In this document: piece by piece, positions 6,258-20,382 of the stretch | Layout of the letters: every line of letters starts with the position of its first letter | Position numbering within the stretch: position 1 is the first letter of the stretch | Assembly: GCA_902551155.1 (NCBI GenBank) | Contig: CACDBG010000001.1 | Coordinates: 4,532 to 68,531 of the forward strand | DNA length: 64,000 bases | From: an uncultured Verrucomicrobiota bacterium | GTDB lineage: Bacteria; Verrucomicrobiota; Verrucomicrobiia; Limisphaerales; UBA1100 | Direction of reading: 5' to 3' | Position numbers and translations under genes: made by a program | Notes under the pieces: model-generated | Told to the model about the DNA's origin: nothing | Database searches by the model: none | What the model saw: the letters and a program-made list of their open reading frames with translations, nothing else

Positions 6258-8111
6258 GTGGATAACGCGCGGCTGATTTTTGCTTTCGGGTGGCCCTTCA
6301 TGAAAAGATATTGGAGGCGCCTTTTGTTGGGGGTATTATTGGGTGTTTGCTTTGGTGTATTTAATGGTACTTTTGTTTGGGGAACGAAGACACTATTTGA
6401 GCGATTGAATCCAGATGATTCAGCTGAGCGAAATTTTACGGACACAACTGTTGTCCCGAGCGAATGGTCCAAAAAATTGAGTTCAGCAAACGATGTGGTG
6501 AAACGACGACTGGATCCGTGGCTGCCTCGTACAGGCAATGACTTGAGCATGCAACAGATCATAGGGGGGCTTCTTTTTTTACCATTTCTGGTCGGAGTAC
6601 GGAGCGGGATTGGATACGCAAGTGTATATTTTTTGGGATGGGTGAGTGAATATACAGTTCGGGATATCCGAATGGAGGCTCATTCAAACTTGCAGCGGCT
6701 TTCCTTAGATTATTTTTACGCGAAACAATTGGGTGATCATACAATGTTGATGAATCGTAGTACGGAGTCATTGCACCGTTGTCTTACCTACGGTGTTGCC
6801 GATGCAATCAAAGAGCCGTTCACGATATTAAGTTTGGTAACGGCTATGTTTATACTGGATTGGCAACTGGCTTTATTCGGCGTTCTGTTTGCCCCATTGA
6901 GTGCTATTCCAATCATAATAGTCGGCCGCAAACTACGTAAGGTGGCAAAGGTAACCTATAATAAAGGAACGGAACAGGATAGTTTGATGGTGGAGGTATA
7001 TACGAATATGCGCATAATTAAGGCTTATTGTATGGAAAAGATTCAGCTGGATCGGTTTAGTGGAATATACAATAAGCTAGCTCGCGCTGGCATGAAGGGT
7101 CTTCAGGCTCGTCATCTACAGAATCCAGTAATTGAATTACTTAGCACCATTGGAGCTGGGGTAATCATTATTTTTGTCTTCTATACTGACAAATCTGTTC
7201 CCCAGTTGGTGGGATTTTTAACTGGCATGATTATGCTCTATCAGCCAATCAAGAAGCTGGGATCAATAAATCAATATTATCAAGAGGCATCTGTGGGAGT
7301 CGGCATGCTGAAGGAAGTATTTGCTCAACGCCCTTCTGTAACTGAGCGTGAAAATGCTGTAGAATTAGGTCCGTTTCGATCACAGTTGGCTTTTAAAGGA
7401 GTAGATTTTTCCTACGGAGAAGAGGCCGTGCTCAGCGAGTTTGATTTAGAGATTCCTAAAGGAACAAAGTTAGGCGTGGTTGGTGAGAGTGGGGCCGGGA
7501 AAAGCACTTTGGTGAGTTTACTATTGCGGTTTTATGATCCTACTAAAGGGTGTGTTACCCTCGATGAGGTAGACATTAAAACATTCACTTTTCAAAGCTT
7601 ACGTGCGCAGATGGCATTGGTGAGTCAGGAAGTAGTGATTTTCGATCAAACAGTAGCGGAAAATATAGCGTGTGGAAACATTGATGCGTCACCCGAGAAG
7701 ATCATTGAAGCAGCAAAAGCAGCAAATGCTCATGATTTTATTGAGGGTTTGCCCCGGAGATATGACACGCGATTGGGAGAACAGGGGGCCCGACTTTCGG
7801 GAGGGCAACGGCAACGAATTGCCATTGCTAGAGCGTTTGTCAGACAGGCACCGATTCTGATCTTAGACGAGGCTACTGCAGCTTTAGATTCGAAGGCGGA
7901 GGCCGAAGTTCAAGGAGCGATCGACCGATTAGAAGAGGGCCGTACTGTGGTTTGTGTGGCGCACCGGCTGTCAACCCTGCGGAGAATGGATAGGATTATA
8001 GTTCTGGATCAAGGACGCGTAGTGGAGTCCGGTAGTTTTGAGGGATTATTAAATGGTGGCGGAGTTTTTTCTGAGATGGCAGCAAAGCAGGGGCTGAAAA
8101 CGACTGACTAA
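6258..8111 (+). CDS. msbA: ABC transporter permease/ATPase fusion, MsbA-like lipid A/lipid exporter
   Basis: 617 aa: an N-terminal 6-TM type I exporter domain, Walker A GESGAGKST, signature LSGGQRQRIAIARA, and Walker B ILILDEATAALD. It sits among LPS core glycosyltransferase genes. GTG start; an alternative ATG is at 6300. Confidence 0.8.
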   Translation: MDNARLIFAFGWPFMKRYWRRLLLGVLLGVCFGVFNGTFVWGTKTLFERLNPDDSAERNFTDTTVVPSEWSKKLSSANDVVKRRLDPWLPRTGNDLSMQQIIGGLLFLPFLVGVRSGIGYASVYFLGWVSEYTVRDIRMEAHSNLQRLSLDYFYAKQLGDHTMLMNRSTESLHRCLTYGVADAIKEPFTILSLVTAMFILDWQLALFGVLFAPLSAIPIIIVGRKLRKVAKVTYNKGTEQDSLMVEVYTNMRIIKAYCMEKIQLDRFSGIYNKLARAGMKGLQARHLQNPVIELLSTIGAGVIIIFVFYTDKSVPQLVGFLTGMIMLYQPIKKLGSINQYYQEASVGVGMLKEVFAQRPSVTERENAVELGPFRSQLAFKGVDFSYGEEAVLSEFDLEIPKGTKLGVVGESGAGKSTLVSLLLRFYDPTKGCVTLDEVDIKTFTFQSLRAQMALVSQEVVIFDQTVAENIACGNIDASPEKIIEAAKAANAHDFIEGLPRRYDTRLGEQGARLSGGQRQRIAIARAFVRQAPILILDEATAALDSKAEAEVQGAIDRLEEGRTVVCVAHRLSTLRRMDRIIVLDQGRVVESGSFEGLLNGGGVFSEMAAKQGLKTTD

Positions 8112-9223: not shown

Positions 9224-10078
9224 TTATGATGCGACAGCAGTAGGAGATTGGATAATCGGCTGATATTGGACGCCCAAAAGAGTATGCAGCTTTGCATTCA
9301 TGATAGTCATGTTTGGGAAACGGTCTTTGGGCTGGAAGGCGAGGCACTGATGGATGAGTTGGCTCAATCCAACGGGTACCTGTGGGTTATGAAGATGGGC
9401 AGGTTTAAACGAGTATTTTTCATTCAACTGATTACGGCGTGATTCTTCAGGGGTTCGCCCCCCAAAAGGTCGCAATTTGGTGAGCAGCTCATAGGCTGTA
9501 GCTCCCCAAGAGTATATGTCTGCACGATGATCTGTTTCTTTACCCATTAGCTGTTCTGGAGCCATATAGGCCGGGGTGCCAGAAACCTTAGGATATTTTT
9601 TGGGTTTGCGAGGAAACGATTGAGCTGTGTCAAAATCGAGTAAGCTTACATGCCCATTCAGGGAAACCATGATGTTTTCGGGTTTGTAATCCAGATGAAT
9701 CCAGCCTCGGTCATGTAGATGGTTAAGTCCATCAGCCATCTGAATTAGAACGTCTGCAACATTGTCAACCAACTCGAGTCCTCGCGATAAGACTGCTTTC
9801 AGGTCCGCCCCTTGAACGTATTGGAGTACCATGTAAGGTGTTTTATCGGCCTTCCCATGGTTAATGAATCGAATAATGTTGGGATGTGGAGAAAGTTTTT
9901 GGTGAACTTTTAGCCCAGCTTTAAAGAGCTTCGGCGCACTAGAGCTAGTTAGCCCACTACTCCGGAGTTTTCTAACTGCAACTACGTTTTCAAACTCGTC
10001 AGTCGCCATCCAGATCTCGGTGATGCCACCTTGAGCCACACACTCATGTAATAGAAAATTTCCAAATCTTTTCGCCAA
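9224..10078 (-). CDS. stand-alone Ser/Thr protein kinase domain protein with atypical motifs
   Basis: 284 aa with VAVRKL, HLDYKPENIM (HRD-type loop), DFD (DFG position) and GTPAYMAPE. I see no extra domains. Confidence 0.8.
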   Translation of the reverse strand: MAKRFGNFLLHECVAQGGITEIWMATDEFENVVAVRKLRSSGLTSSSAPKLFKAGLKVHQKLSPHPNIIRFINHGKADKTPYMVLQYVQGADLKAVLSRGLELVDNVADVLIQMADGLNHLHDRGWIHLDYKPENIMVSLNGHVSLLDFDTAQSFPRKPKKYPKVSGTPAYMAPEQLMGKETDHRADIYSWGATAYELLTKLRPFGGRTPEESRRNQLNEKYSFKPAHLHNPQVPVGLSQLIHQCLAFQPKDRFPNMTIMNAKLHTLLGVQYQPIIQSPTAVAS

Positions 10079-10323: not shown

Positions 10324-12051
10324 GTGGGAAAAAGGAATATGTTAAGGGAGGCAAAAGCCAGATTCTATTTTGTTGGCGGCTTGGCGGTTATTGTCGCCTT
10401 GTTTGCATTGGGCTGTGCTGCCGCCAAGCATCGTGAGGCTGCTGATAAGGAGGTATATCAAATTTTGTCCGAACGTCATGAACATGTCTTCGGTCAGCCT
10501 CACAATTATTCCATAGATACTGAATATTCAAAACGCAAACCAACAGATGTGAATGGCAGTGAGCTGATCCTCGACCGTGCTCGGGGAAGCAAGGTGCGGC
10601 TAATCACGCTTCCTGAAGCATTGGAAATAGCAGTCAAATCGAATCGCTCTTATCAGGATAATCGCGAGGAACTATACAAGAAAGCTTTGAGCCTAACAGA
10701 AACCCGTCACAATTTTTCTTTCCAATTTACTAGTGCAAGTGCCGATATAGGAATAAAGCGAAATTCGGATGGAACACAGGATCCGGCTACATCTTCAGCC
10801 AATATTGGGTTAACCAAAAAAATCTGGAAAACCGGAGGCCAAATCACAGCTTCATTAGCTAATGATTTAGTGCTCTACATTAACGGTAAACCTAAAGTGC
10901 CTGATTTAACCTTAAAACTTACCCAGCCATTGTTGCGCGGTGCAGGGGCAGATGTTGCTGCAGAGCTTCTAAAGCTGGCCGAGCGTCAAGTGGTATATCA
11001 AGTGCGCGACTTTAGTCATTATCAGAAGACTTTCGCCCTGAACGTGGTCAATGATTACCTCGACCTTTTACAGCAAGCAGACAGTATGCGTATTTCCTAT
11101 AATAGTTATACGAACTCAATATTTTTCCGTACTGAAATAGAAGCCCGTGCGGATGCTGGTTTGTTAGCGGAGTTTGATGTCAAACAGGCCAAGAAAGATG
11201 AATACGACGCTAAGTTGAGCTATATTGGATCAACCAATTCTTTCCAGAATTCATTGGATAATTTCAAACAAGAACTTTCGCTGCCACAAGGAACATCGAT
11301 CCAGCTTGATTTTAAGGTTTTGGAGCAAATAAATAAGTTAGGGCTACCTCAGGTTCCTATTAATGATTTAACCGGGTACAGCATGGCTATCACTAACCGG
11401 CTCGATTTTCTTAATCATATTGACCGGTTTGAGGATGCCAAGCGCTCAGTTAAGGTTGCTCGAAATAGTTTACTTCCCGGTTTAACTTTTGAAGCTGAGG
11501 CCAAACTAAAGGATCAACTTTATGATTCCTTTGATCCGAATGAATACGACTCTACTATAAAACTGAAACTTGATCTTCCGATATCCAAAGTTAGTGAGCG
11601 CAATGCATATCGCAAAAGTATTATTACTTTTGAGAAGCAACTGCGTACTTTAGCAACTCAGCTCGACACTTTAAGGAAGGGGGTTCGAGCGGATGTCCGC
11701 AATCTTGCTCGTCAAAGAGCTTATTATTATACACAGCTTGCGAAGCAGAAAAACGCTGAGGAGAACTTACTGGCTACCCGAGAACGTTTACGGCTGGGGT
11801 TTCCGGGAGTACGTACTCAAGATATTATTAGAGCTCGAAACAGCCTTACTTCTGCCCAGCAGGCGGTATCTCGGGCGATTGTAGACTATCATAAAACCCG
11901 CTTGAAGCTTCGCAAAGACGTGGGTATTTTAGACACGACACAGGAAGAATTTTGGCTCAAGACCAATGCAACTTCAGGTGGACAACCTGACCCAGCCCCA
12001 GATCAACAGGACCAAGAGGTAATACCGCCAAATCAAATTTTAGGAGATTAA
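10324..12051 (+). CDS. TolC/NodT-family outer membrane efflux lipoprotein
   Basis: 575 aa with lipobox LFALGC near the N-terminus. It has the two-repeat coiled-coil/beta-barrel pattern typical of the OEP family and is the first gene of the efflux operon. GTG start; an alternative ATG is at 10339. Confidence 0.8.
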   Translation: MGKRNMLREAKARFYFVGGLAVIVALFALGCAAAKHREAADKEVYQILSERHEHVFGQPHNYSIDTEYSKRKPTDVNGSELILDRARGSKVRLITLPEALEIAVKSNRSYQDNREELYKKALSLTETRHNFSFQFTSASADIGIKRNSDGTQDPATSSANIGLTKKIWKTGGQITASLANDLVLYINGKPKVPDLTLKLTQPLLRGAGADVAAELLKLAERQVVYQVRDFSHYQKTFALNVVNDYLDLLQQADSMRISYNSYTNSIFFRTEIEARADAGLLAEFDVKQAKKDEYDAKLSYIGSTNSFQNSLDNFKQELSLPQGTSIQLDFKVLEQINKLGLPQVPINDLTGYSMAITNRLDFLNHIDRFEDAKRSVKVARNSLLPGLTFEAEAKLKDQLYDSFDPNEYDSTIKLKLDLPISKVSERNAYRKSIITFEKQLRTLATQLDTLRKGVRADVRNLARQRAYYYTQLAKQKNAEENLLATRERLRLGFPGVRTQDIIRARNSLTSAQQAVSRAIVDYHKTRLKLRKDVGILDTTQEEFWLKTNATSGGQPDPAPDQQDQEVIPPNQILGD

Positions 12052-12052
12052 T

Positions 12053-14452
12053 ATGAGAAAAAGAAACAGATCCAAAAAGGCTAATTCTGCGGCATCAGTT
12101 ACTAATCAACGGGGCAGAGGAGGCTTCGCGATTGCGAAACTGCTCGGCGTTTTGATTCTGTTCGGCGTTGTGGGTGGCGGGGTCTGGGGTGCTAAATATT
12201 ATCTCAATAAAGAGAAGGAAAAGGTTCGCAAGGAAGTTTATCATGTTGCCAATAAATCTGATTTTTTAGTTACAGTTCCGTTGACCGGCCAGTTGAAATC
12301 TACTGATGTAGAAGAGCTTAAGTGTGAATTGGAAGGTTCGACTACCATTGAAACGATTGTGGAAGAAGGGACTAAGGTAAAAGGCCCCGTCACCTATACT
12401 GTTAAATTGGAGGACTCAATAGAGTCCATATCAAAATATCATGATAAGGATCTACTTTGCATCAAGCAGCTGAATAAGGACCTTAAGCTGGACTGGGAAA
12501 AATTGGAGGCAGGTACGGAGATTCAAATCCCTGGCGACTTACTTGTTGAGCTGGACCCCTTAACTTTGAAAGAACGTATTAATTCCCAGGAGATTGCGGT
12601 ACAGCGTGCAGAAAACAATTTGATGCGTGCTAAGGGCAATAAGGAGACGCTCGTGCTTGCTTCGGAACTCGCTCTCAAGGTGGCTCAAAATAATTATACA
12701 AATGCTTTAATGGACCTGGATAAGTTAAAGAATAACACCATTGAGACATATATAACGAATACAGGAATTTCCATTAAGAATTTAGAGACTGACGTAGAGC
12801 TGGCGGAGAAAAATCTGACCGCCTATAACAGACTAAAGGAATTGGGGTTTGTATCTGATTTAGAGGTGCTCAAGGAAAAATCCAGAAGAGATAAGGCCTT
12901 ACATCAGATCAAGGTATTAAGAGACGATTTGGAGACCTATAAAAAGTATGATCAAAAATCTATGCTGAGCGCGAAAGAGCTGACGGTAGATGAGTGCGCG
13001 GTGCAGATAAAGAAACAGGAAGTTATGAATAAGGCCAACTCTGCAGATGCAGACTCCGATGTTTTGACTGCTGAGAAGACCTTGGAGCTAGAGCGGGAAA
13101 AATTGGAGGATCTTTTCGAGCAGATGGCAAATACTAAAATCTACGCGCCTCAGGATGGAACCGTTTTGTATTGGACTCACCGTTATGATCGAGGGGAGCC
13201 GATTATGGATGGAGCGAAAGTCTATAAGGGCAGAAATTTAATTAAGTTGCCCAAGAGTAAATCACTCAAGGTTGATATTAGTGTGCCACAGCTCAAACGT
13301 CCTCAGTTGAAAGTTGGGCAGAAGGCCTATGTTGAAGTTGAAGATATAAAGCTTCCGGGAACTTTATCTATGATCAGCACAACTGTGGATTCCAATCGCC
13401 GAGGGCACACTGATAAATCCTATTTTAAAGCCGAGGTTGCTATTGATAGCAGTAGTTTCCCTGACTCAGTTTCTGAAGGGATGAAGGTTAAAGTGGAAGT
13501 TGTGGTCATGAATCTTGTTGAGGAAGAGCGTTTGATTAAGTTGCCAAACCAGTGTGTGACCACTCGTATGATTAGTGAAGATACTCCAGAAACCGGATGC
13601 TGGGTGCTTAATGAAAAGACTGAAAAACATGAGTGGCGACCTGTGACTATAGAATATAGTGATGAAACCCATATTGCTATACGCGATTGGGCTTCTATCT
13701 TGGATATTACCGATAAACAAAAGGATAAATGGTGGCAGCAGCGCAATAAGGCAAAAAAAGCCCTAGATCAGTTGGCTGAAGAATTAGCGTCAGAAAAAGA
13801 AGCTCTGATGGTAAAGGCCCGTGAGGAAGTAAAGGATTTCTCTAGAGTGGAGCGGCAGGAAGCAATAAAAAATGCCAAGAAAAAAACCGATAAGGATATA
13901 CGAAAAAAACAGGAGGATGGCGCAGCAGAAATTATTGATGCGTTTCGCAAATCGGTCGAGGGATTCCTGTCGGAAAAGCAACTGGTGAAGTTTGATGAGG
14001 CCCCTAGTCAGCTCAAAACAGAGGGAAACAAAACAGAGGGAATTATGGTCTACTTTGATGGGCTAAGGGAGGGGGAGCGCGTCCATCTCTCACCTCTAAC
14101 TGAGGCGGACAATCTAAATCTCGATGAAGCTATTATGGGTAAGGGTTACATTGATCTGGAGACTCAAGCTCCCAAGAAAGCGGGCCTCAATGATCCTGTC
14201 AGTTTACTTGGGATTACAGAGGATCAAAAGCAGGATTGGTCAACTGCACAAGCTAAGGCGAAAAGTGCTAGGGCCAAGTTAATGGCGGGCCTAATGTCAA
14301 AAGAAATTACGAGGGATCAAATCCCAAGTGCTAGTGAAAAAATTCGAAATGACTTTCGAGAAGAAGTACAGAAGTTCCTTAACGAGGAACAAATGCAGAA
14401 GTTCGATCAGCAAATGAAGAAGGATTATAAAGTTCTCTTTCCGAAGCAGTAA
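12053..14452 (+). CDS. HlyD/MacA-family periplasmic adaptor (MFP) with LysM-like and LTXXQ-type insertions
   Basis: 799 aa with an N-terminal TM anchor (FAIAKLLGVLILFGVVGGGVWG) and long coiled-coil hairpins. It has the motif IYAPQDGTVLYW and beta-barrel segments. The ATG is 1 nt after the TolC stop. The extra modules are described in the findings. Confidence 0.8.
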   Translation: MRKRNRSKKANSAASVTNQRGRGGFAIAKLLGVLILFGVVGGGVWGAKYYLNKEKEKVRKEVYHVANKSDFLVTVPLTGQLKSTDVEELKCELEGSTTIETIVEEGTKVKGPVTYTVKLEDSIESISKYHDKDLLCIKQLNKDLKLDWEKLEAGTEIQIPGDLLVELDPLTLKERINSQEIAVQRAENNLMRAKGNKETLVLASELALKVAQNNYTNALMDLDKLKNNTIETYITNTGISIKNLETDVELAEKNLTAYNRLKELGFVSDLEVLKEKSRRDKALHQIKVLRDDLETYKKYDQKSMLSAKELTVDECAVQIKKQEVMNKANSADADSDVLTAEKTLELEREKLEDLFEQMANTKIYAPQDGTVLYWTHRYDRGEPIMDGAKVYKGRNLIKLPKSKSLKVDISVPQLKRPQLKVGQKAYVEVEDIKLPGTLSMISTTVDSNRRGHTDKSYFKAEVAIDSSSFPDSVSEGMKVKVEVVVMNLVEEERLIKLPNQCVTTRMISEDTPETGCWVLNEKTEKHEWRPVTIEYSDETHIAIRDWASILDITDKQKDKWWQQRNKAKKALDQLAEELASEKEALMVKAREEVKDFSRVERQEAIKNAKKKTDKDIRKKQEDGAAEIIDAFRKSVEGFLSEKQLVKFDEAPSQLKTEGNKTEGIMVYFDGLREGERVHLSPLTEADNLNLDEAIMGKGYIDLETQAPKKAGLNDPVSLLGITEDQKQDWSTAQAKAKSARAKLMAGLMSKEITRDQIPSASEKIRNDFREEVQKFLNEEQMQKFDQQMKKDYKVLFPKQ

Positions 14453-14473: not shown

Positions 14474-15205
14474 ATGGCTGACCGGAACATCATTGAGATT
14501 CGGAATCTTACCAAGATATATGATCTGGGGGCCATTCAAGTGCCGGCACTCAATGGCCTCAATTTTGAAATTGAGGAAGGATCCTACACTGCCATCATGG
14601 GGCCTTCAGGCTCAGGAAAATCGACACTTCTAAATATTCTCGGATGTTTGGATCGACCTACCGCTGGTGCTTATATTCTGGGTAATGACGATGTGGCCCA
14701 TATGAGTGACAAGGAGCTCTCAGGTGTGAGGGGCGCGCGCATTGGATTCATTTTTCAATCCTATAATCTTATTCAGCAGTTAAACGTGATTGAGAATATT
14801 CACGTTCCTCTTTTTTATCAGGGTAAGGACATTAGTGACTACTATGACCACTGCGAAAAGTTGGCTCAAAAAGTTGGTTTGGGTGATCGATTGGATCATC
14901 GGCCCATGGAACTTTCTGGAGGACAACAACAGAGAGTGGCGGTGGCGCGGTCGTTGGTAAATGAGCCTTTGATGCTTTTGGCTGATGAACCCACTGGCAA
15001 CCTCGACTCCACTACAGAGCAGGAGATTCTGGATATACTCGATGAACTTCACGCAGAGGGTCGCACTCTAGTTGTGGTAACGCATGATGACGCGGTTGCT
15101 GAGCGGGCAAGTCGCGTCATTCACCTCAAGGATGGGCAAGTGGATAAGGATATCCGAAAACAAGATTCAGATCGAAAATCCGAGAACCAGTTTCAGGAAG
15201 CCTAA
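14474..15205 (+). CDS. ABC transporter ATP-binding protein, MacB/LolD type
   Basis: 243 aa with Walker [10 protein letters not shown], signature [15 protein letters not shown], and Walker [12 protein letters not shown]. Confidence 0.9.
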
Positions 15206-15208
15206 ATC

Positions 15209-16510
15209 ATGCCCGGTTTTTCCATTCTCCGCCTGATTCAGGTTGGGTTCAGGAGTCTTCGTCTCCATAAGCTGCGAAGTGCCCTTACAATGTTGGGAAT
15301 GATTATTGGTGTCTGGGCAGTTATTCTATTGGTCGCCATTGGGGAAGGGGCAAGTCGAGAAGCACAGGAGGCGATTAAGGCACTGGGCGCTCAAAATGTC
15401 ATCATCCGGAGCATCAAGCCGATATCGGATAAAGTCCAATTGCAGGGTGAAATGCAGTGGGAGTCTATTTACGGACTTAAGAACTCTGATGCTGTGCGGA
15501 TTGAAAAAACGGTTCCTGGAGTAAAACGAGTTCTTCCAATCTTAAGGCACAGAAAAAATGTTACACATGAGCAACGAGACAAGGATTGTCAGTTGATCGG
15601 AACATTCCCTCATTATCCCCAGTTTACCCAATCACGTCTTGTAGCAGGGCAGTTTCTGAATGAAATGGAGGAGGCAAGGAAAGAAAATGCGTGTGTGTTA
15701 ACGATGAGTTTGGCTGGTTTTCTTTTTCCCGGGAAAAATCCTTTGGGGCAGGAAGTAATTGTTCGTGGTCGTGAATCTCACCAAATATTTCGAGTAAAGG
15801 GTATTTTAGAGGAACGTGCTGATTCAGAAAAGTTGCCACAACAGGCTGATGCAACTGGTCACACGATTTTGGCCAACGTTTATATTCCATTATCCACTTT
15901 CAAAGCTTTGTATGGCATCAAGGATATTGATTTAAGTGTGGGGAGTATATCGGTAAACACGGTTGAATTGAGCGAAATCCGGGTTGAATTTGGTTCGGTG
16001 GATGAGGTGGTTCCAGCTTTGCCATTGATTCGAGAGGCATTGGATAAAGTTCGTAAGGATAAGATCGACTATGAAATTCAAGTTCCCATTAATGAACTTA
16101 ATGCTCTGAAGGCCCAAAAAGCGCGAGATACTTGGCTGTTAATGTTGATTGCCTGCATATCTTTACTCGTAGGAGGTATTGGGATCATGAACATCATGCT
16201 TGCCACGGTGACTGAGCGTACACAGGAAATCGGAGTGCGTCGGGCTTTGGGGGCTACCCAGATTGATATCTCAGTCCAGTTTTTAGTTGAAACGCTCATA
16301 CTCTGTTTAATTGGTGGCACCATTGGGGTACTGGGAGGGTGCGGGAATGCAGCCTTTTTCCATTACATTCTTGATCATACCACGATCGTTACAGAGTGGT
16401 CTGTAGTCGTGGCTTTTGGGTTGGCAGTCGGAGTCGGTTTGACTTTTGGTCTTTACCCCGCATGGAGTGCGGCCCGCTTGGACCCGATTGAGGCTTTACG
16501 ACACTCTTGA
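15209..16510 (+). CDS. ABC transporter permease, MacB/FtsX family (paralog 1)
   Basis: 433 aa with MacB_PCD-like periplasmic domain between TM1 and TM2. The C-terminal FtsX region reads LLVGGIGIMNIMLATVTERTQEIGVRRALGAT. Confidence 0.85.
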   Translation: MPGFSILRLIQVGFRSLRLHKLRSALTMLGMIIGVWAVILLVAIGEGASREAQEAIKALGAQNVIIRSIKPISDKVQLQGEMQWESIYGLKNSDAVRIEKTVPGVKRVLPILRHRKNVTHEQRDKDCQLIGTFPHYPQFTQSRLVAGQFLNEMEEARKENACVLTMSLAGFLFPGKNPLGQEVIVRGRESHQIFRVKGILEERADSEKLPQQADATGHTILANVYIPLSTFKALYGIKDIDLSVGSISVNTVELSEIRVEFGSVDEVVPALPLIREALDKVRKDKIDYEIQVPINELNALKAQKARDTWLLMLIACISLLVGGIGIMNIMLATVTERTQEIGVRRALGATQIDISVQFLVETLILCLIGGTIGVLGGCGNAAFFHYILDHTTIVTEWSVVVAFGLAVGVGLTFGLYPAWSAARLDPIEALRHS

Positions 16511-17826
16511 AAATGTATGCATTAGCTCTCATCCGAATTTTTCAAGCTGGCTTAAAGAGTTTGCGACTACACAAGCTACGTAGTGCTCTCACCATGTTGG
16601 GTATGATTATTGGAGTGGGGGCAGTGATTGCGTTGGTGGCTATTGGTGAAGGGGCCAGTCACGATGCTCAAGAAGAGATTCGAGCACTTGGGGCCAAGAA
16701 TGTGATCATTCGCAGTATCAAGCCGCCTTCTATGCGCGAACAGATGCATGGAGATTGGGAAAGTTTTTTTCGCCGTTGGATGGCATTCTACGGACTAAAA
16801 CGAACTGACGCGACACGCATCAAGGACACAGTGCCAGGAGTGAGCCGTGTCCTTCCGATGCTGACCAAGCGAATGAGCGCGGTGCACGAACGTCGGGAAG
16901 TTGGTTGTCAATTGATTGGGACATTCCCCTACTATCCAGAGTTTACACAGGCCGAACTGGTGGCCGGGGAGTTTCTTAATGCTGCAGAAGAAAACACTAA
17001 GGCGTCAGCTTGTGTGATATCTTTATCCTTAGCTGAGCGTTTGTTCGCAGGGCATAATCCATTGGCAGAAGAAATTGTGGTACGTGGTTACGAATCCGAG
17101 CAGGTGTTTCAAGTGAAGGGAATTTTACGTGAAAGGGCGGATACTGAGAAATTACCGCAATTACCCGACTCTATGGGCCAAACGATTGCGGCAAATGTAT
17201 ATATTCCTTTATCCACCTTTAAGTCGTTATACGGAGAAAGAAATGTGGACCGTAGTGTAGGTAATCTCGTACTTGAAGCAGTAGAATTGTCGGAGATACG
17301 AGTCGAATTTGATACGGTTGAAGATGTATTGCCGGCTCTACCATTAATTGATGAGGCATTAAAGGCAGGCAGAGATGAACGTGATTTCGAAATCGTAGTA
17401 CCCATACAGGAAATGGTAGCGCTTCGAAACCAAAAGGCACGTGACACGAGAATGCTTTTGTATATTGCTTGCATCTCACTATTGGTTGGAGGGATCGGCA
17501 TCATGAATATTATGCTGGCGACTGTTACCGAGCGTACTCAGGAAATCGGGGTGCGTCGTGCGTTGGGTGCTACACGCTCAAATATTACCATACAGTTCCT
17601 CGTAGAGACCTTATTGCTTTGTCTTGTTGGTGGGGCAATCGGGGTTTCTGGTGGGTGGGCTTTTTCAGAGTTTCGCGAATTTTTAACGGGTGATTCAACC
17701 ATCGTAAAAGCATGGTCCGTGATAATGGCCTTTGGACTGTCGGTTGTAATCGGATTAGTTTTTGGTCTGTATCCGGCACGTAGAGCAGCGCATTTGGATC
17801 CTATTGAGGCTTTGCGCCATACTTAA
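16507..17826 (+). CDS. ABC transporter permease, MacB/FtsX family (paralog 2)
   Basis: 439 aa, collinear with and highly similar to the upstream permease (LRLHKLRSALTMLGMIIGV and LLVGGIGIMNIMLATVTERTQEIGVRRALGAT are identical). The TTG 16507 start overlaps the upstream TGA; an alternative ATG is at 16513. Confidence 0.85.
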   Translation: MKMYALALIRIFQAGLKSLRLHKLRSALTMLGMIIGVGAVIALVAIGEGASHDAQEEIRALGAKNVIIRSIKPPSMREQMHGDWESFFRRWMAFYGLKRTDATRIKDTVPGVSRVLPMLTKRMSAVHERREVGCQLIGTFPYYPEFTQAELVAGEFLNAAEENTKASACVISLSLAERLFAGHNPLAEEIVVRGYESEQVFQVKGILRERADTEKLPQLPDSMGQTIAANVYIPLSTFKSLYGERNVDRSVGNLVLEAVELSEIRVEFDTVEDVLPALPLIDEALKAGRDERDFEIVVPIQEMVALRNQKARDTRMLLYIACISLLVGGIGIMNIMLATVTERTQEIGVRRALGATRSNITIQFLVETLLLCLVGGAIGVSGGWAFSEFREFLTGDSTIVKAWSVIMAFGLSVVIGLVFGLYPARRAAHLDPIEALRHT

Positions 17827-17883: not shown

Positions 17884-18729
17884 ATGAGATTTGGTATTAA
17901 CACCTTTCTATTCACTTCGCCCTTCACCACCAAAAGTACGAGTCTTTTCCCCAAATTCAAGAAATGGGGATTTCAGACCATCGAAATCCCAATTGAAGCG
18001 CCTGAACATATTGACTCAGTTAAAGTTAAAAAAGCTCTGGACCGCAATGGTTTAGTTTGCGGTTCGGTTTGTGCCTGCATGGGGCCCGGACGTGATTTTC
18101 GTGGTAGTGCAAAGGATCAGAGAGAAGCGATGAAATATTGCAAAGCTCTGATTGACCATATGGTGAATTTGGGTTGTCCGTCATTAATTGGTCCAGTTTA
18201 TAGTGTAGTAGGTAAGGCAGATGCCGTGGAGCCCAAAGAGCAAAAGAGGGAATTTGCCCTTGTCGTAAAAAACCTGAAAGTGCTTGCTGCTTACGCTGAG
18301 AAGAAGGGTGTTCAGATTTGCGTTGAACCTCTCAATCGATTTGAAACAGATTTTCTTAATACTTGTGAAAAAGGCCTGCGCCTCATAAAGGCTGTTGGGA
18401 GTCCGGCATTAAAGCTGCATCTGGATACCTTCCACATGAATATTGAGGAAAAGAATCAGGCAGCCGCAATCCGCAAGGCAGGCAAACATCTTGGCCATTT
18501 TCATGCGTGCGGTAGTGATCGGGGCACTCCTGGAAACGATCACATTGATTGGGTGCCGATTGTTAAGGCGCTCAAAGGTATACGTTATAAAGGTGACATT
18601 GTGATCGAGAGTTTTACGACTGATGTAAAGGTGATTGCACGTGCAGCAGCAATTTGGAGACGAATGGAGCCTACGCGTGAAGAAATTGCTGTGAAGGGGC
18701 TGAAATTTTTGAAGAAAGCTTTTAAGTAA
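17884..18729 (+). CDS. sugar phosphate isomerase/epimerase (xylose isomerase-like TIM barrel; ketose 3-epimerase-like)
   Basis: 281 aa: MRFGINTFLFTSPF..., the metal-ligand context EPLNRFE, LDTFHMNIEE, HFHACGSDRGTPG, and ESFT. Confidence 0.8.
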   Translation: MRFGINTFLFTSPFTTKSTSLFPKFKKWGFQTIEIPIEAPEHIDSVKVKKALDRNGLVCGSVCACMGPGRDFRGSAKDQREAMKYCKALIDHMVNLGCPSLIGPVYSVVGKADAVEPKEQKREFALVVKNLKVLAAYAEKKGVQICVEPLNRFETDFLNTCEKGLRLIKAVGSPALKLHLDTFHMNIEEKNQAAAIRKAGKHLGHFHACGSDRGTPGNDHIDWVPIVKALKGIRYKGDIVIESFTTDVKVIARAAAIWRRMEPTREEIAVKGLKFLKKAFK

Positions 18730-18748
18730 ACCATCCAACTAATTATCC

Positions 18749-19450
18749 ATGAAAAAAGTAATCATTTTATTATTTGCCCTAGTAATCCTCTTGCCAGCAG
18801 AGCAAAAGGGTTTTCAATCCATCTTTGATGGAAAAACTCTGAAAGGCTGGAACGGAGATCCAACATTCTGGAGTGTTAAGGATGGTGCCATTACGGGCCA
18901 AACGACCAAGGCAAACCCGACCAAAGGCAACACCTTTATCATATGGGAAGGGGGAAAATTAAAAGATTTTATCCTGGAAGTGGATTTTAAAATAATAGGT
19001 GGCAATAGCGGCATTCAGTATCGTAGTTTCAAAAAATCAGGTAACAATGATGGCTGGCGTATTGGTGGGTATCAGGCGGATTTTGCCGCGGGAGCTGGAG
19101 GAGATCGTTATTCAGGCATTTGTTACGGGGAAGCATTTCGCGGTATTCTCTCCCTCCGGGGCGATAAGACCACACTGACTAAAGAGGGAGGTAAGTTAAA
19201 AAAGAAGGTAGAGAAAATCGGGGATGCGGCTGCTTTGGGTAAGCTGGTCAAAAAAGAAGATTGGAATACGTTTCGCATTGAAGCGAAAGGTTTTGAACTG
19301 ACCCATTATATTAATAATAAAAAAATGACGGTACTTGTTGATAATGACGAGAAAACACGCCGAGCTGACGGGTTGCTGGCATTCCAATTACATGCCGGTC
19401 CTCCAATGGTGGTTCAGTTTAAGAATATTCGCATAAAGCATTTAAATTAG
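18749..19450 (+). CDS. DUF1080 (3-keto-disaccharide hydrolase family) secreted protein
   Basis: 233 aa with a signal peptide. Contains FQSIFDGKTLKGWNGDPTFWSVKDGAITGQ, GNSGIQYRS, and LAFQLHAGPPMVVQFKNIRIK, all hallmark strings of DUF1080. Confidence 0.85.
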   Translation: MKKVIILLFALVILLPAEQKGFQSIFDGKTLKGWNGDPTFWSVKDGAITGQTTKANPTKGNTFIIWEGGKLKDFILEVDFKIIGGNSGIQYRSFKKSGNNDGWRIGGYQADFAAGAGGDRYSGICYGEAFRGILSLRGDKTTLTKEGGKLKKKVEKIGDAAALGKLVKKEDWNTFRIEAKGFELTHYINNKKMTVLVDNDEKTRRADGLLAFQLHAGPPMVVQFKNIRIKHLN

Positions 19451-19494
19451 TTGTAATTTAAGGTGCGAATAACCACGCGTCCTTATTGTTTTAT

Positions 19495-20382
19495 ATGAAA
19501 AGTATCTTTCAGGTTTTCTGCTTTTTATTGATGGGCGTGTTTGTTGCTCAATCAGCTGACAAAAAAATTATTTTGATTGCGGGTCGGCCCAGTCATGGCC
19601 CTGGTGATCATGAATTTCGTGCTGGCTCTCTTTTGTTAGAGAAATGTTTGGATAAATTGCCGGGTATAACGGCTGAGGTTCATGATATGGGCTGGCCTAA
19701 AAGTGACGCTGTTTTCAAGGGGGCCGATGCTATTCTGGTGTATGCCGATGGCGGCGGGCGGCACCCAGCCATGCATCCTGAGCGAGTTCAGTTAATAAAT
19801 GAGCTCATTGCCAAAGGAGCGGGTGTGGGGTGCGCTCATTATGGAGTGGAAGTTCCTGCAGGGGATACGGGGAAAACCATGCAGGATTGGATTGGAGGTT
19901 ATTACGAACATAAGTTTTCCGTGAACCCTATGTGGGCGCCAGATTATCAAAAATTTCCCAATCATCCCATTGCCAATGGGGTGAAGCCCTTCAAGGTAGT
20001 GGATGAATGGTATTTTAACATGAGATTTCGCAATGATGGTGTGGGAAAAGTTACCCCCATTCTTACGGCTAAACCCGGCAAGGATGTGCGGGATGGGCCT
20101 TATGTGTATCCGCGCGGGCCGTATAAACACATCGTTGAAGGAGAAGGTCGCGCTGAAACTATGATGTGGGCTTATGAGCGACCTAATGGCAGTCGTGGAT
20201 TTGGTTTTACCGGCGGCCATAAACACATAAATTGGGGTAATGAAAACTACCGTAAGGTGGTGCTCAATGGTCTACTCTGGTTAGCCAAGGCCAAGGTGCC
20301 CAAAAACGGAGTTGTGTCCAGTGTTTCACCGGAGCAACTCGAGACAAATCTTGATCCCAAGGGGCGCAAAAAAAAGAAATAA
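19495..20382 (+). CDS. ThuA domain protein (secreted)
   Basis: Signal MKSIFQVFCFLLMGVFVAQSA, then KKIILIAGRPSHGPGDHEFRAG...YADGGGRHP...GFGFTGGHKHINW. The track ORF starts at TTG 19486; I prefer ATG 19495. Confidence 0.8.
   Translation: MKSIFQVFCFLLMGVFVAQSADKKIILIAGRPSHGPGDHEFRAGSLLLEKCLDKLPGITAEVHDMGWPKSDAVFKGADAILVYADGGGRHPAMHPERVQLINELIAKGAGVGCAHYGVEVPAGDTGKTMQDWIGGYYEHKFSVNPMWAPDYQKFPNHPIANGVKPFKVVDEWYFNMRFRNDGVGKVTPILTAKPGKDVRDGPYVYPRGPYKHIVEGEGRAETMMWAYERPNGSRGFGFTGGHKHINWGNENYRKVVLNGLLWLAKAKVPKNGVVSSVSPEQLETNLDPKGRKKKK

What the first reader, a model, noticed from the sequence alone, without database searches (positions are those of the whole stretch)
12392..12535. A LysM-like module is inserted inside the lipoyl-hairpin motif of the efflux adaptor
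Canonical MFPs have V-x-E-G-x-x-V-K-K-G-D/Q-x-L-x-x-L-D. Here that motif is split: VEEGTKVKGP-[VTYTVKLEDSIESISKYHDKDLLCIKQLNKDLKLDWEKLEAGTEIQIP]-GDLLVELD. The inserted ~48 aa follow the LysM consensus (YTVKxGD(S/T)(L/I)xSI(A/S)xxY...L...N....L..G..(L/I).IP). A peptidoglycan-binding module inside the adaptor of a tripartite pump would tether the pump to the sacculus. I do not know of this architecture being characterised.
Basis: partly seen in the sequence, partly recalled or inferred. Interest (0 to 1): 0.55.

Follow-up and report, generated by a model that had tools for sequence, protein, structure and literature searches.

The report
LysM domain nested in efflux adaptor
The periplasmic adaptor of a three-part export pump in uncultured marine Verrucomicrobiota carries a real, conserved sugar-binding LysM domain spliced into a tight turn of one of its core domains; this probably lets the pump grip the cell wall, which no described pump adaptor is known to do with a dedicated domain.

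Summary
ORF 12053-14452 (799 aa) is a MacA/HlyD-type periplasmic adaptor. It sits in an operon of outer-membrane factor, adaptor, ABC ATPase and two MacB/FtsX permeases. In relatives without the insert, the motif reads "EGxxVK-KGDLLVELD" without a break. Here 50 residues (aa 111-160, nt 12383-12532) sit in that turn.

The insert is a LysM domain on three counts:
- **Sequence:** the excised insert scores 24.0 bits against Pfam PF01476 (cut-off 20.9), and 24 of 25 homologous inserts match (best E 5e-10).
- **Fold:** the AlphaFold model is beta-alpha-alpha-beta (pLDDT 90.8), and about the first 30 Foldseek PDB hits are solved LysM domains (TM 0.64-0.83).
- **Binding residues:** the positions that matter most for glycan binding in the AtlA LysM are conserved across the family.

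The insert is present in all 120 listed homologues and in all 25 genome loci that cover the site. All named sources are Verrucomicrobiota MAGs. It is also present in a 34%-identical orthologue with the same gene order, and absent from more distant adaptors.

That it tethers the pump to peptidoglycan is plausible but untested. The predicted hairpin is about 140 Å long, which puts the LysM ring far from where E. coli peptidoglycan sits. I found no paper describing this architecture. I rate it a new variant of a known kind, of moderate interest.

The parts
10324..12051 (+). Outer-membrane factor (TolC/OprM-like), 575 aa, first gene of the operon
   Evidence: Pfam OEP PF02321, E 6.4e-18, two stretches. 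It lies next to the adaptor gene in most related loci.
12053..14452 (+). Periplasmic adaptor / membrane fusion protein, 799 aa, carrying the LysM insert
   Evidence: Foldseek of the AF2 model: the top hits are MacA (5nik_D, E 3.9e-14), EmrA, AcrA and MexA. Weak Pfam HlyD_D23 and NCBIfam HlyD/RND_mfp hits.
12125..12193 (+). N-terminal membrane anchor (aa 25-47, FAIAKLLGVLILFGVVGGGVWGA), which places the rest of the protein in the periplasm
   Evidence: A hydrophobic stretch read directly from the sequence. AF2 predicts helix 27-58.
12338..12382 (+). N-terminal lipoyl-domain strands ending in ...IVEEGTKVK (aa 96-110), the first half of the split motif
   Evidence: Alignment with insert-less adaptors. 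AF2 strand 98-102.
12383..12532 (+). The 50-aa insert (aa 111-160). The LysM domain proper is aa 115-160 (nt 12395-12532): beta1 113-116, helix 123-130, helix 134-140, beta2 156-159.
   Evidence: Pfam LysM hits. Profile search against PDB sequences finds LysM proteins as its 17 best matches and most of the rest. AF2 pLDDT is 83-88 in context and 90.8 in isolation. Foldseek top hits are all LysM.
12533..12559 (+). Strand GDLLVELDP (aa 161-169), the second half of the split motif, leading into the hairpin
   Evidence: G161, L163, D168 and P169 are invariant in 30 homologues. AF2 strand 163-168.
12560..13129 (+). Alpha-helical hairpin (aa 170-359): two helices of 94 and 91 residues, about 140 Å at 1.5 Å per residue
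   Evidence: AF2 helices H170-263 and H269-359, pLDDT about 87-95.
13130..13687 (+). C-terminal half of the lipoyl domain, plus beta-barrel and membrane-proximal strands (aa 360-545)
   Evidence: Pfam HlyD_D23 stretch 321-450. AF2 strands. Residues 375-402 have low confidence.
13688..14056 (+). Helical module, copy 1 (aa 546-668), itself inserted between strands of the C-terminal beta region. Function unknown.
   Evidence: Present only in the 799-858-aa homologues. 29% identical to copy 2, pairwise E 7e-7.
14186..14437 (+). Helical module, copy 2 (aa 712-795), at the C-terminus. Only weakly LTXXQ-like.
   Evidence: LTXXQ hits in 6 of 10 members, all below the Pfam cut-off. No relative among PDB sequences.
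14474..15205 (+). ABC ATPase (MacB/LolD-type, a separate polypeptide)
   Evidence: Pfam ABC_tran, E 7.5e-31.
15209..16510 (+). MacB/FtsX-type permease 1
   Evidence: Pfam MacB_PCD E 3e-29 and FtsX E 5e-21.
16507..17826 (+). MacB/FtsX-type permease 2. It overlaps permease 1 by 4 nt, which suggests a heterodimeric permease.
   Evidence: Pfam MacB_PCD E 8.6e-30 and FtsX E 4.4e-22.

Best explanation
A complete LysM (CBM50) domain has been inserted into the beta-turn between the 'V-K' and 'G-D-L-L' strands of the lipoyl domain of a MacA/HlyD-type periplasmic adaptor. The adaptor belongs to an ABC (MacB-type) tripartite pump of marine Verrucomicrobiota. The two LysM strands pair with each other, so its ends lie side by side and it can sit in a tight turn without disturbing the host domain. 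An N-terminal membrane helix anchors the adaptor and puts the LysM in the periplasm. Adaptors of this kind assemble as hexamers. The pump would therefore carry a collar of six LysM domains on the outside of the ring, at the base of the hairpin. Each LysM binds GlcNAc-containing glycan strands weakly, so together they would bind with avidity only once the ring has formed. The most likely ligand is the peptidoglycan sacculus. Binding would dock, position or immobilise the adaptor-transporter complex relative to the cell wall. Shown here: the insert, its LysM identity by sequence and predicted fold, its conservation, and the operon. Inferred: hexameric display, outward orientation, glycan binding, and peptidoglycan as the ligand.
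For: LysM identity: Pfam PF01476 covers the full model, scoring 22.6-24.0 bits on the excised insert against a cut-off of 20.9. 24 of 25 homologous inserts hit it, best E 5e-10. The insert profile finds LysM proteins as its 17 best matches among PDB sequences (Ecp6 1.5e-8, YkuD 9e-6, LytE, MltD) and as most of the weaker ones. AF2 gives beta-alpha-alpha-beta at pLDDT 90.8. About the first 30 Foldseek hits are LysM domains, TM 0.64-0.83, rmsd 1.1-2.4 Å.

Likely binding competence: in the AtlA LysM the substitutions T13A, L14A and I39A cut affinity 60-80 fold (PMC4083421). By my manual alignment, the equivalent positions here are T122 (29 of 30), L/I123 (28 of 30) and L151 (30 of 30). D121 and N141 are invariant. 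The insert evolves at about the same rate as the hairpin: mean pairwise identity 0.54 against 0.54-0.59.

Age and constancy: the insert is in all 120 listed homologues and in all 25 genome loci that cover the site. It is also in a 34%-identical orthologue with the same gene order.

Context: the genes for the outer-membrane factor, ATPase and two permeases stay linked to the adaptor. The whole model matches MacA, EmrA and AcrA.

Precedents: the AcrA hairpin contacts peptidoglycan in situ (PMC6570770). A single LysM binds weakly and binding rises with copy number. LysM nested inside another domain is known from MoCVNH3, which is among the Foldseek hits.
Against: No binding was measured. The window's own copy departs from the family consensus at three motif positions (G120E, T122S, A127S) and has one of the weakest LysM scores. 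Geometry is a concern. With 94- and 91-residue hairpin helices, the LysM collar would lie about 140 Å below the hairpin tips. In E. coli, peptidoglycan meets the pump at the hairpin and TolC junction. Where the sacculus lies in these uncultured bacteria is unknown. I could not obtain model coordinates, so the outward orientation rests on a steric argument only: six domains of about 50 aa cannot fit in the channel lumen. The family has an extra, invariant D147-W148 in the helix 2-strand 2 loop that canonical LysM domains lack, which could change specificity.
Confidence: 0.55

Rival explanations
1. The LysM collar binds a GlcNAc-containing molecule other than the sacculus. Candidates are the pump's cargo or its precursor (a glycolipid, an exopolysaccharide, chito-oligosaccharides, or released or nascent glycan strands). 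In that case it acts as a substrate-capture or sensing module rather than an anchor.
For: LysM recognises GlcNAc-X-GlcNAc in chitin and Nod factors as well as in peptidoglycan. The collar is predicted to lie near the inner-membrane end of the pump, far from the hairpin tip. That position is closer to where MacB-type pumps take up periplasmic substrates (established knowledge of MacAB-TolC). The family-specific invariant D147-W148 in the ligand-side loop could mean an altered specificity.
Against: No glycan-synthesis or chitin-related gene stays linked to the operon in the loci examined. The conserved neighbours are an ABC exporter and a protein kinase. A domain on the outside of the adaptor ring is not on the known substrate path. 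Most bacterial periplasmic LysM domains bind peptidoglycan.
Confidence: 0.15
2. The LysM fold is used here as a protein-protein or purely structural module. It might brace neighbouring protomers of the ring or recruit a partner protein, and it no longer binds glycan.
For: LysM-like folds used for protein contacts occur in phage and contractile-injection baseplates and in a mitoribosomal protein, all of which appear lower in the Foldseek list. The window's copy has lost the G and the T of the GDT motif. A different, beta-rich insert occupies the same turn in a neighbouring adaptor clade, so the site may simply tolerate decoration.
Against: The residues conserved across the family are the ones that line the glycan groove in characterised LysM domains (D121, T122, L/I123, S125, I126, N141, L151). 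They are not a novel surface. Sequence-level LysM hits as strong as 5e-10 are typical of glycan-binding LysM domains, not of the remote structural look-alikes.
Confidence: 0.15
3. The family's LysM does anchor to peptidoglycan, but in this particular lineage (the window and its 86-99% relatives) the domain is decaying and contributes little.
For: Only the window protein and P0002 have E at position 120. The window alone has S122. Both have S127. Its Pfam score falls below the cut-off when the whole protein is scored (19.0 against 20.9).
Against: The changes are conservative (T to S, A to S, L to I). All other invariant positions (D121, N141, D147, W148, L151, G154, P160) are kept. The domain is intact, with no deletions or frameshifts. 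It is predicted to fold with pLDDT 83-91.
Confidence: 0.1
4. The resemblance to LysM is a chance match in a linker, or an annotation or assembly artefact.
For: The whole-protein Pfam score is just under the gathering threshold.
Against: The model is covered end to end. 24 of 25 homologues hit it. The fold prediction is confident and all top structural neighbours are LysM. The insert is found in independent MAGs from many samples.
Confidence: 0.01

Closest known systems
MacA of MacAB-TolC (E. coli; PDB 5NIK, 3FPP), and long-hairpin adaptors such as EmrA and HlyD
   Same: Both have an N-terminal membrane anchor, a lipoyl domain split by an alpha-hairpin, and beta-barrel and membrane-proximal regions. 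Both are encoded in an operon with a MacB-type ABC transporter and an outer-membrane factor. MacA is the best structural match (E 3.9e-14). The hairpin length resembles EmrA, whose coiled coil is described as 127 Å long (PMC4158417, abstract).
   Different: None of these has a domain inserted in the lipoyl turn. This protein adds a LysM there, plus one or two helical modules near the C-terminus. The permease is encoded as two separate paralogous genes with a separate ATPase, as in LolCDE, rather than as a fused MacB homodimer. Its sequence scores fall below the curated cut-offs of the Pfam and NCBIfam adaptor models.
Canonical bacterial LysM domains (Pfam PF01476 / CBM50), e.g. B. subtilis YkuD, E. 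coli MltD, E. faecalis AtlA, T. thermophilus NlpC/P60
   Same: Same beta-alpha-alpha-beta fold, GDTLxSIA...N motif and length class. TM 0.64-0.83 and rmsd 1.6-2.3 Å to these structures.
   Different: Those LysM domains sit as terminal or tandem beads on wall hydrolases and transpeptidases. This one is a single copy nested inside another domain of a transport protein. It also has three extra residues, including an invariant Asp-Trp, before strand 2.
MoCVNH3 / MoCVNH-LysM of Magnaporthe oryzae (PDB 2L9Y, 5C8O)
   Same: A LysM domain nested inside a loop of a host domain, which shows that the fold tolerates insertion. It appears among the Foldseek hits.
   Different: It is a eukaryotic lectin, unrelated to transport, and its host domain is CVNH rather than a lipoyl or barrel-sandwich hybrid.
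Peptidoglycan anchors of other envelope-spanning machines: TsaP (a LysM protein associated with the type IV pilus secretin PilQ) and GspB/OutB of the type 2 secretion system
   Same: Same logic: a peptidoglycan-binding module fixes a trans-envelope machine to the wall (papers listed, e.g. PMC9239104; the TsaP role is from my own knowledge of the literature).
   Different: In those systems the binding module is a separate accessory protein acting on an outer-membrane secretin. Here it is built into the core periplasmic adaptor of a tripartite pump.
AcrA-peptidoglycan contact in AcrAB-TolC (in situ cryo-tomography, PMC6570770)
   Same: A periplasmic adaptor that touches the sacculus. That contact was proposed to position and stabilise the adaptor-transporter subcomplex.
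   Different: In AcrA the contact is made by the hairpin itself, with no dedicated binding domain. Here a dedicated glycan-binding domain sits at the other end of a much longer hairpin.

Membership tests
LysM domain (Pfam PF01476 / CBM50) | Match to the family HMM at or above the curated threshold, across the whole model | tested here: met
   The excised insert scores 22.6 and 24.0 bits against a cut-off of 20.9, covering model positions 1-43 of 43. In the whole protein it scores 19.0 bits, just below the cut-off. 24 of 25 homologous inserts match, best E 5e-10.
LysM domain (Pfam PF01476 / CBM50) | Beta-alpha-alpha-beta fold with the two strands paired | tested here: met
   AF2 gives E2-5, H12-19, H23-29 and E45-48 at pLDDT 90.8, and the same elements in the full-length model. 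About the first 30 Foldseek PDB hits are LysM domains, TM 0.64-0.83. This is a predicted structure, not a solved one.
LysM domain (Pfam PF01476 / CBM50) | Conserved groove residues (GDT-L-x-x-I-A after strand 1; Asn after helix 2; a hydrophobic residue before strand 2) | tested here: met
   Family counts out of 30: G120 24, D121 30, T122 29, L/I123 28, S125 28, I126 28, A127 25, N141 30, L151 30. The window's copy has E120, S122, I123 and S127. The mapping to AtlA T13, L14 and I39 follows and my own manual alignment.
LysM domain (Pfam PF01476 / CBM50) | Binds GlcNAc-containing glycans (peptidoglycan or chitin) | not testable with these tools
   This needs a pull-down with sacculi, or ITC/SPR/NMR with (GlcNAc)n or glycan strands.
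Periplasmic adaptor / membrane fusion protein (HlyD, MacA, AcrA superfamily) | Lipoyl domain interrupted by an alpha-helical hairpin, followed by beta-barrel and membrane-proximal domains | tested here: met
   AF2 topology. Foldseek gives 73 PDB matches at E <= 1e-3, and all 50 listed are adaptors (MacA 3.9e-14, EmrA 5.5e-13, AcrA, MexA).
Periplasmic adaptor / membrane fusion protein (HlyD, MacA, AcrA superfamily) | Match to curated sequence models at threshold | tested here: not met
   Pfam HlyD_D23 scores 22.3 bits against a cut-off of 30. NCBIfam type_I_hlyD scores 39 against 208.65, and RND_mfp 36.6 against 94.9. The protein is a divergent member. Homologues P0123, P0133 and P0136 do pass the HlyD_D23 or HlyD_3 cut-offs.
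Periplasmic adaptor / membrane fusion protein (HlyD, MacA, AcrA superfamily) | Encoded with an inner-membrane transporter and an outer-membrane factor | tested here: met
   OEP, adaptor, ABC_tran and two MacB_PCD+FtsX genes are adjacent in the window and linked in about 25 related loci.
Periplasmic adaptor / membrane fusion protein (HlyD, MacA, AcrA superfamily) | Forms a hexameric ring that bridges transporter and outer-membrane channel | not testable with these tools
   No multimer prediction and no model coordinates were available. This is assumed by analogy with MacA in 5NIK.
MacB-type (type VII ABC) tripartite pump | Permease with four transmembrane helices, a large periplasmic core domain (MacB_PCD) and an FtsX C-terminal domain, plus a cognate ATPase | tested here: met
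   Pfam MacB_PCD and FtsX match in both permeases (E 3e-29 to 4e-22), and ABC_tran matches at E 7.5e-31. Unlike E. coli MacB, the ATPase is a separate gene and there are two permease paralogues.

The most novel reading that the evidence does not exclude
The six-fold LysM collar is a glycan receptor rather than a passive anchor. Either it captures GlcNAc-containing polymers (released or nascent peptidoglycan strands, or an exported glycan) and presents them to the MacB-type pump, or it couples pump assembly to the state of the cell wall. This would be a first example of a tripartite pump whose adaptor reads a carbohydrate. The invariant Asp-Trp added to the ligand-side loop would then mark a new specificity.
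Probability: 0.12. Interest if true: 0.75.

Novelty: new variant of a known kind. Interest (0 to 1): 0.48.

Why it matters
How envelope-spanning pumps relate to the peptidoglycan layer they must cross is still poorly understood. For AcrAB-TolC, a contact between the adaptor hairpin and peptidoglycan was seen in situ and proposed to guide assembly (PMC6570770). No adaptor is known to carry a dedicated wall-binding domain, however. This family appears to be a natural case in which evolution fused one into the adaptor core and kept it across a deep lineage of marine Verrucomicrobiota.

If the LysM binds the sacculus, that would be independent support for the idea that wall contact matters for pump assembly or stability. 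It would also say where the sacculus lies in the periplasm of these bacteria. And it would provide a portable design: a domain that can be spliced into a defined adaptor turn. A second, unrelated insert occupies the same turn in a neighbouring clade, which marks that turn as a tolerant engineering site.

The limits are plain. All carriers are uncultured, the substrate of the pump is unknown, and binding has not been shown.

Tried and rejected
1. A profile of the N-terminal region of the four most distant LysM-bearing adaptors (A3), searched against the 5.8-billion-protein set, returned only 28 hits. All were short fragments, and the one with a taxon name was Verrucomicrobiota. This added nothing on distribution outside the phylum.
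3. The genome scan used peptide patterns specific to this family, so its all-Verrucomicrobiota result says nothing about other adaptor families.
4. I tried to name the helical C-terminal modules. The profile search against PDB sequences gave only noise (best E 0.08). Pfam gave sub-threshold LTXXQ hits in 6 of 10 members. I leave them unnamed.
5. I considered whether the system could be an FtsEX-EnvC-like regulator of wall hydrolases rather than a pump, since it combines a MacB-family permease, a long coiled coil and a wall-binding domain. I rejected this because an OEP-family outer-membrane factor gene stays linked to the operon and the adaptor has the full MacA-like domain set.
6. I considered that the insert is ancestral and was lost elsewhere. 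I rejected this because the large majority of the 150 best-scoring relatives, like canonical adaptors, have the uninterrupted motif.
7. Three literature searches for LysM together with HlyD, membrane fusion protein, periplasmic adaptor or HlyD_D23 found no relevant paper.
Full report
**Observation**

They are aa 114-161 of a 799-aa ORF at 12053-14452. The flanks are ...IVEEGTKVKGP and GDLLVELD.

I aligned the protein with more distant adaptors from an exhaustive HMMER search of 1.84 billion representative proteins (1949 hits at E <= 1e-3). The ordinary relatives, at 25-31% identity, read "EGS.VK-KGDLLVELD" without interruption. Their best matched stretch typically begins at query residue 160 or 161. 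So the motif really is split. By that alignment the insert is aa 111-160 (nt 12383-12532), taking the place of a single residue.

**Is the insert a LysM domain?**

Four lines of evidence agree.
- **Pfam.** PF01476 matches across its whole length (1-43 of 43). It scores 19.0 bits (E 1.4e-3) in the whole protein, just under the 20.9-bit cut-off. It scores 22.6 and 24.0 bits (E 1e-4 and 3.7e-5) on two excised segments.
- **Homologues.** The homologous inserts are clearer. 24 of 25 non-redundant inserts hit PF01476, best E 5e-10. Their consensus is Y-x-I-x-x-G-D-T-L-x-S-I-A...L-x-I-x-x-L-N...L-D-W-x-N-L-x-x-G-x-E-I-x-I-P-G.
- **Profile against PDB.** A profile of the inserts has LysM proteins as its 17 best matches among PDB sequences, and as most of the weaker ones. 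They include Ecp6 (1.5e-8), YkuD (9e-6), LytE and MltD.
- **Predicted fold.** AlphaFold2 predicts strand 113-116, helix 123-130, helix 134-140 and strand 156-159, at pLDDT 83-88 within the full-length model. The insert modelled alone reaches pLDDT 90.8. About the first 30 Foldseek hits for that model are solved LysM domains: T. thermophilus NlpC/P60, fern and Volvox chitinases, YkuD, MltD, Ecp6, intimin and AtlA. Query-normalised TM is 0.64-0.83 and rmsd 1.1-2.4 Å. The E-values are modest (4e-3 and up) because the domain is only 51 residues, but the list is uniform.

Neither holds.

The family differs from canonical LysM in one respect. Three extra residues, including an invariant Asp147-Trp148, sit between helix 2 and strand 2.

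The window's own copy is a mildly degenerate member. It has E120, S122 and S127 where most homologues have G, T and A.

**The host protein and its operon**

The full-length model's best structural matches are MacA in the MacAB-TolC complex (5nik_D, E 3.9e-14), then EmrA, AcrA and MexA. Sequence models hit only below their curated thresholds: Pfam HlyD_D23 at 22.3 against 30 bits, plus NCBIfam HlyD and RND_mfp. The protein is therefore a divergent adaptor.

- It has an N-terminal hydrophobic anchor (aa 25-47).
- Its hairpin is predicted as two helices of 94 and 91 residues, about 140 Å. That is in the class of EmrA and HlyD rather than MacA.
- The neighbouring genes are an OEP-family outer-membrane factor (10324-12051), an ABC ATPase (14474-15205) and two MacB_PCD+FtsX permeases (15209-16510 and 16507-17826).
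- This linkage recurs in about 25 related loci.

**Distribution**

A word-indexed search found 234 homologues. All 120 listed carry the insert. Where the sources name a taxon, it is Verrucomicrobia, Opitutales or Verrucomicrobiales, and every named entry is a metagenome-assembled genome.

A scan of one genome per GTDB species found 29 loci. All are Verrucomicrobiota MAGs (Verrucomicrobiales, Opitutales/Opitutia, Limisphaerales), many from ocean metagenomes. One is 99% identical to the window (a Verrucomicrobiales MAG labelled ERR599156). All 25 loci that cover the site keep the insert. A 27%-identical Opitutaceae paralogue lacks it.

Among 50%-identity representatives, LysM-type inserts persist in proteins only 30-40% identical to the query (P0124, P0126, P0133, P0136). 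Those with names are Verrucomicrobiales. The locus of P0126 has the same gene order as the window: ABC exporter, divergent protein kinase, outer-membrane factor, adaptor, ATPase, MacB permease. The insert is therefore old within this lineage and has been kept.

Mean pairwise identity in the insert is 0.54. That equals the hairpin (0.54-0.59) and is lower than the beta domains (0.67-0.70).

**Likely mechanism**

In the E. faecalis AtlA LysM, the substitutions that most reduce glycan affinity are T13A, L14A and I39A, by 60-80 fold. A single module binds weakly, needs at least four sugars, and binding rises with the number of modules (PMC4083421). By my manual alignment, the equivalent positions here are T122 (29 of 30), L/I123 (28 of 30) and L151 (30 of 30). 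D121 and N141 are invariant. Selection has thus preserved the glycan groove, which argues for a binding-competent domain.

Adaptors of this class form hexamers (established for MacA in 5NIK; not tested here). The pump would therefore present six LysM domains. Six 50-residue domains cannot fit in the channel lumen, so they should sit on the outside. They would lie at the end of the lipoyl domain opposite the hairpin, because the strand that follows the insert runs directly into the first hairpin helix (sequence).

I propose that this collar binds peptidoglycan glycan strands with an avidity that appears only on ring assembly, docking or immobilising the pump. The AcrA hairpin is already known to touch peptidoglycan in situ, and this was proposed to position the AcrAB subcomplex (PMC6570770). 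Verrucomicrobia do have peptidoglycan walls (PMC5303756, listed).

**Weak points**

- Nothing was measured.
- I could not obtain model coordinates or a multimer prediction.
- The collar would lie about 140 Å from the hairpin tips, far from where E. coli peptidoglycan meets its pumps. Contact requires either a sacculus nearer the inner membrane in these bacteria or binding in a pre-assembly state.

For these reasons I put 0.55 on the anchor model. Substantial weight remains on a non-wall GlcNAc ligand, on a protein-contact role, and on partial decay in the window's own lineage.

**Comparison with what is known, and novelty**

The parts are all known kinds: a LysM domain, a MacA/HlyD-type adaptor, a MacB-type pump. 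LysM nested inside another domain also has a precedent in the fungal MoCVNH-LysM lectin, which appears among the Foldseek hits. Peptidoglycan anchoring of other envelope machines by accessory proteins is established too (TsaP, GspB/OutB).

What I could not find described is a peptidoglycan-binding domain built into a tripartite-pump adaptor. Three full-text searches returned nothing relevant, and two dedicated adaptor-protein reviews contain no mention of LysM. Automated pipelines have already flagged PF01476 on some of these proteins, so the architecture exists in databases without comment.

I could not survey other phyla because the AlphaFold database library was unavailable. I rate the finding a new variant of a known kind, with moderate interest.

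Noticed in passing
window 13688-14056 and 14186-14437 (aa 546-668 and 712-795 of the adaptor): There are two copies of a helical module: 'L-(D/G)-I-T-x-x-Q-K-x-x-W ... F-R-x-x-V-x-x-F-L-x-E-x-Q-x-x-K-F-D'. The copies are 29% identical, pairwise E 7e-7. The first copy is itself inserted between beta strands of the C-terminal barrel/membrane-proximal region and occurs only in the 799-858-aa homologues. The second is C-terminal and is absent from the roughly 605-aa homologues. Only sub-threshold Pfam LTXXQ (Spy/CpxP-type) hits were found, and no relative among PDB sequences.
   Followed up: partly
proteins P0159, P0168, P0197, P0223, P0229 (relatives at 23-29% identity; no window coordinates): A neighbouring adaptor clade carries a different, beta-rich insert of about 55 aa at exactly the same turn. 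It ends in a second 'V-x-E-G-Q-x-V-x-A-G-D' hybrid motif and gives weak Pfam hits to Peptidase_M23, Apocytochr_F_C and Biotin_lipoyl. Four of the five proteins end in EF-hand calcium-binding motifs; P0223 has no EF-hand hit. The turn is therefore a recurrent insertion site.
   Followed up: partly
window 15209-16510 and 16507-17826: Two paralogous MacB_PCD+FtsX permease genes overlap by 4 nt and share one separate ATPase gene. This is a LolCDE-like heterodimeric arrangement rather than a fused MacB homodimer, and it is conserved in related loci.
   Followed up: partly
window 9224-10078 (-) and 6258-8111 (+): A divergently transcribed 284-aa ORF lies upstream; its orthologue in L030 matches Pfam Pkinase, but the window ORF itself was not scanned. 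A half-transporter-type ABC exporter (ABC_membrane + ABC_tran) lies beside it. Both remain syntenic with the pump operon even in a locus whose adaptor is only 34% identical. This suggests a functional or regulatory link.
   Followed up: no
L001 7514-9166, compared with window 17884-18729: The MAG contig whose adaptor is 99% identical to the window's differs downstream of the second permease. It has a second outer-membrane-factor-like gene (45% identical to the window's) where the window has a xylose-isomerase-like TIM-barrel gene (AP_endonuc_2). The window is therefore not simply that contig.
   Followed up: no
L030 11399-16154: In the distant orthologous locus, a second complete MacB-type tripartite set follows immediately downstream of the first: OEP, a YknX-like adaptor without LysM, ATPase and permease.
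   Followed up: no
window 17884-20382: Directly downstream of the operon are genes for a xylose-isomerase-like TIM barrel, a 3-keto-disaccharide hydrolase and a ThuA-like protein. This is a sugar-oxidation and utilisation cluster typical of polysaccharide-degrading Verrucomicrobiota.
   Followed up: no
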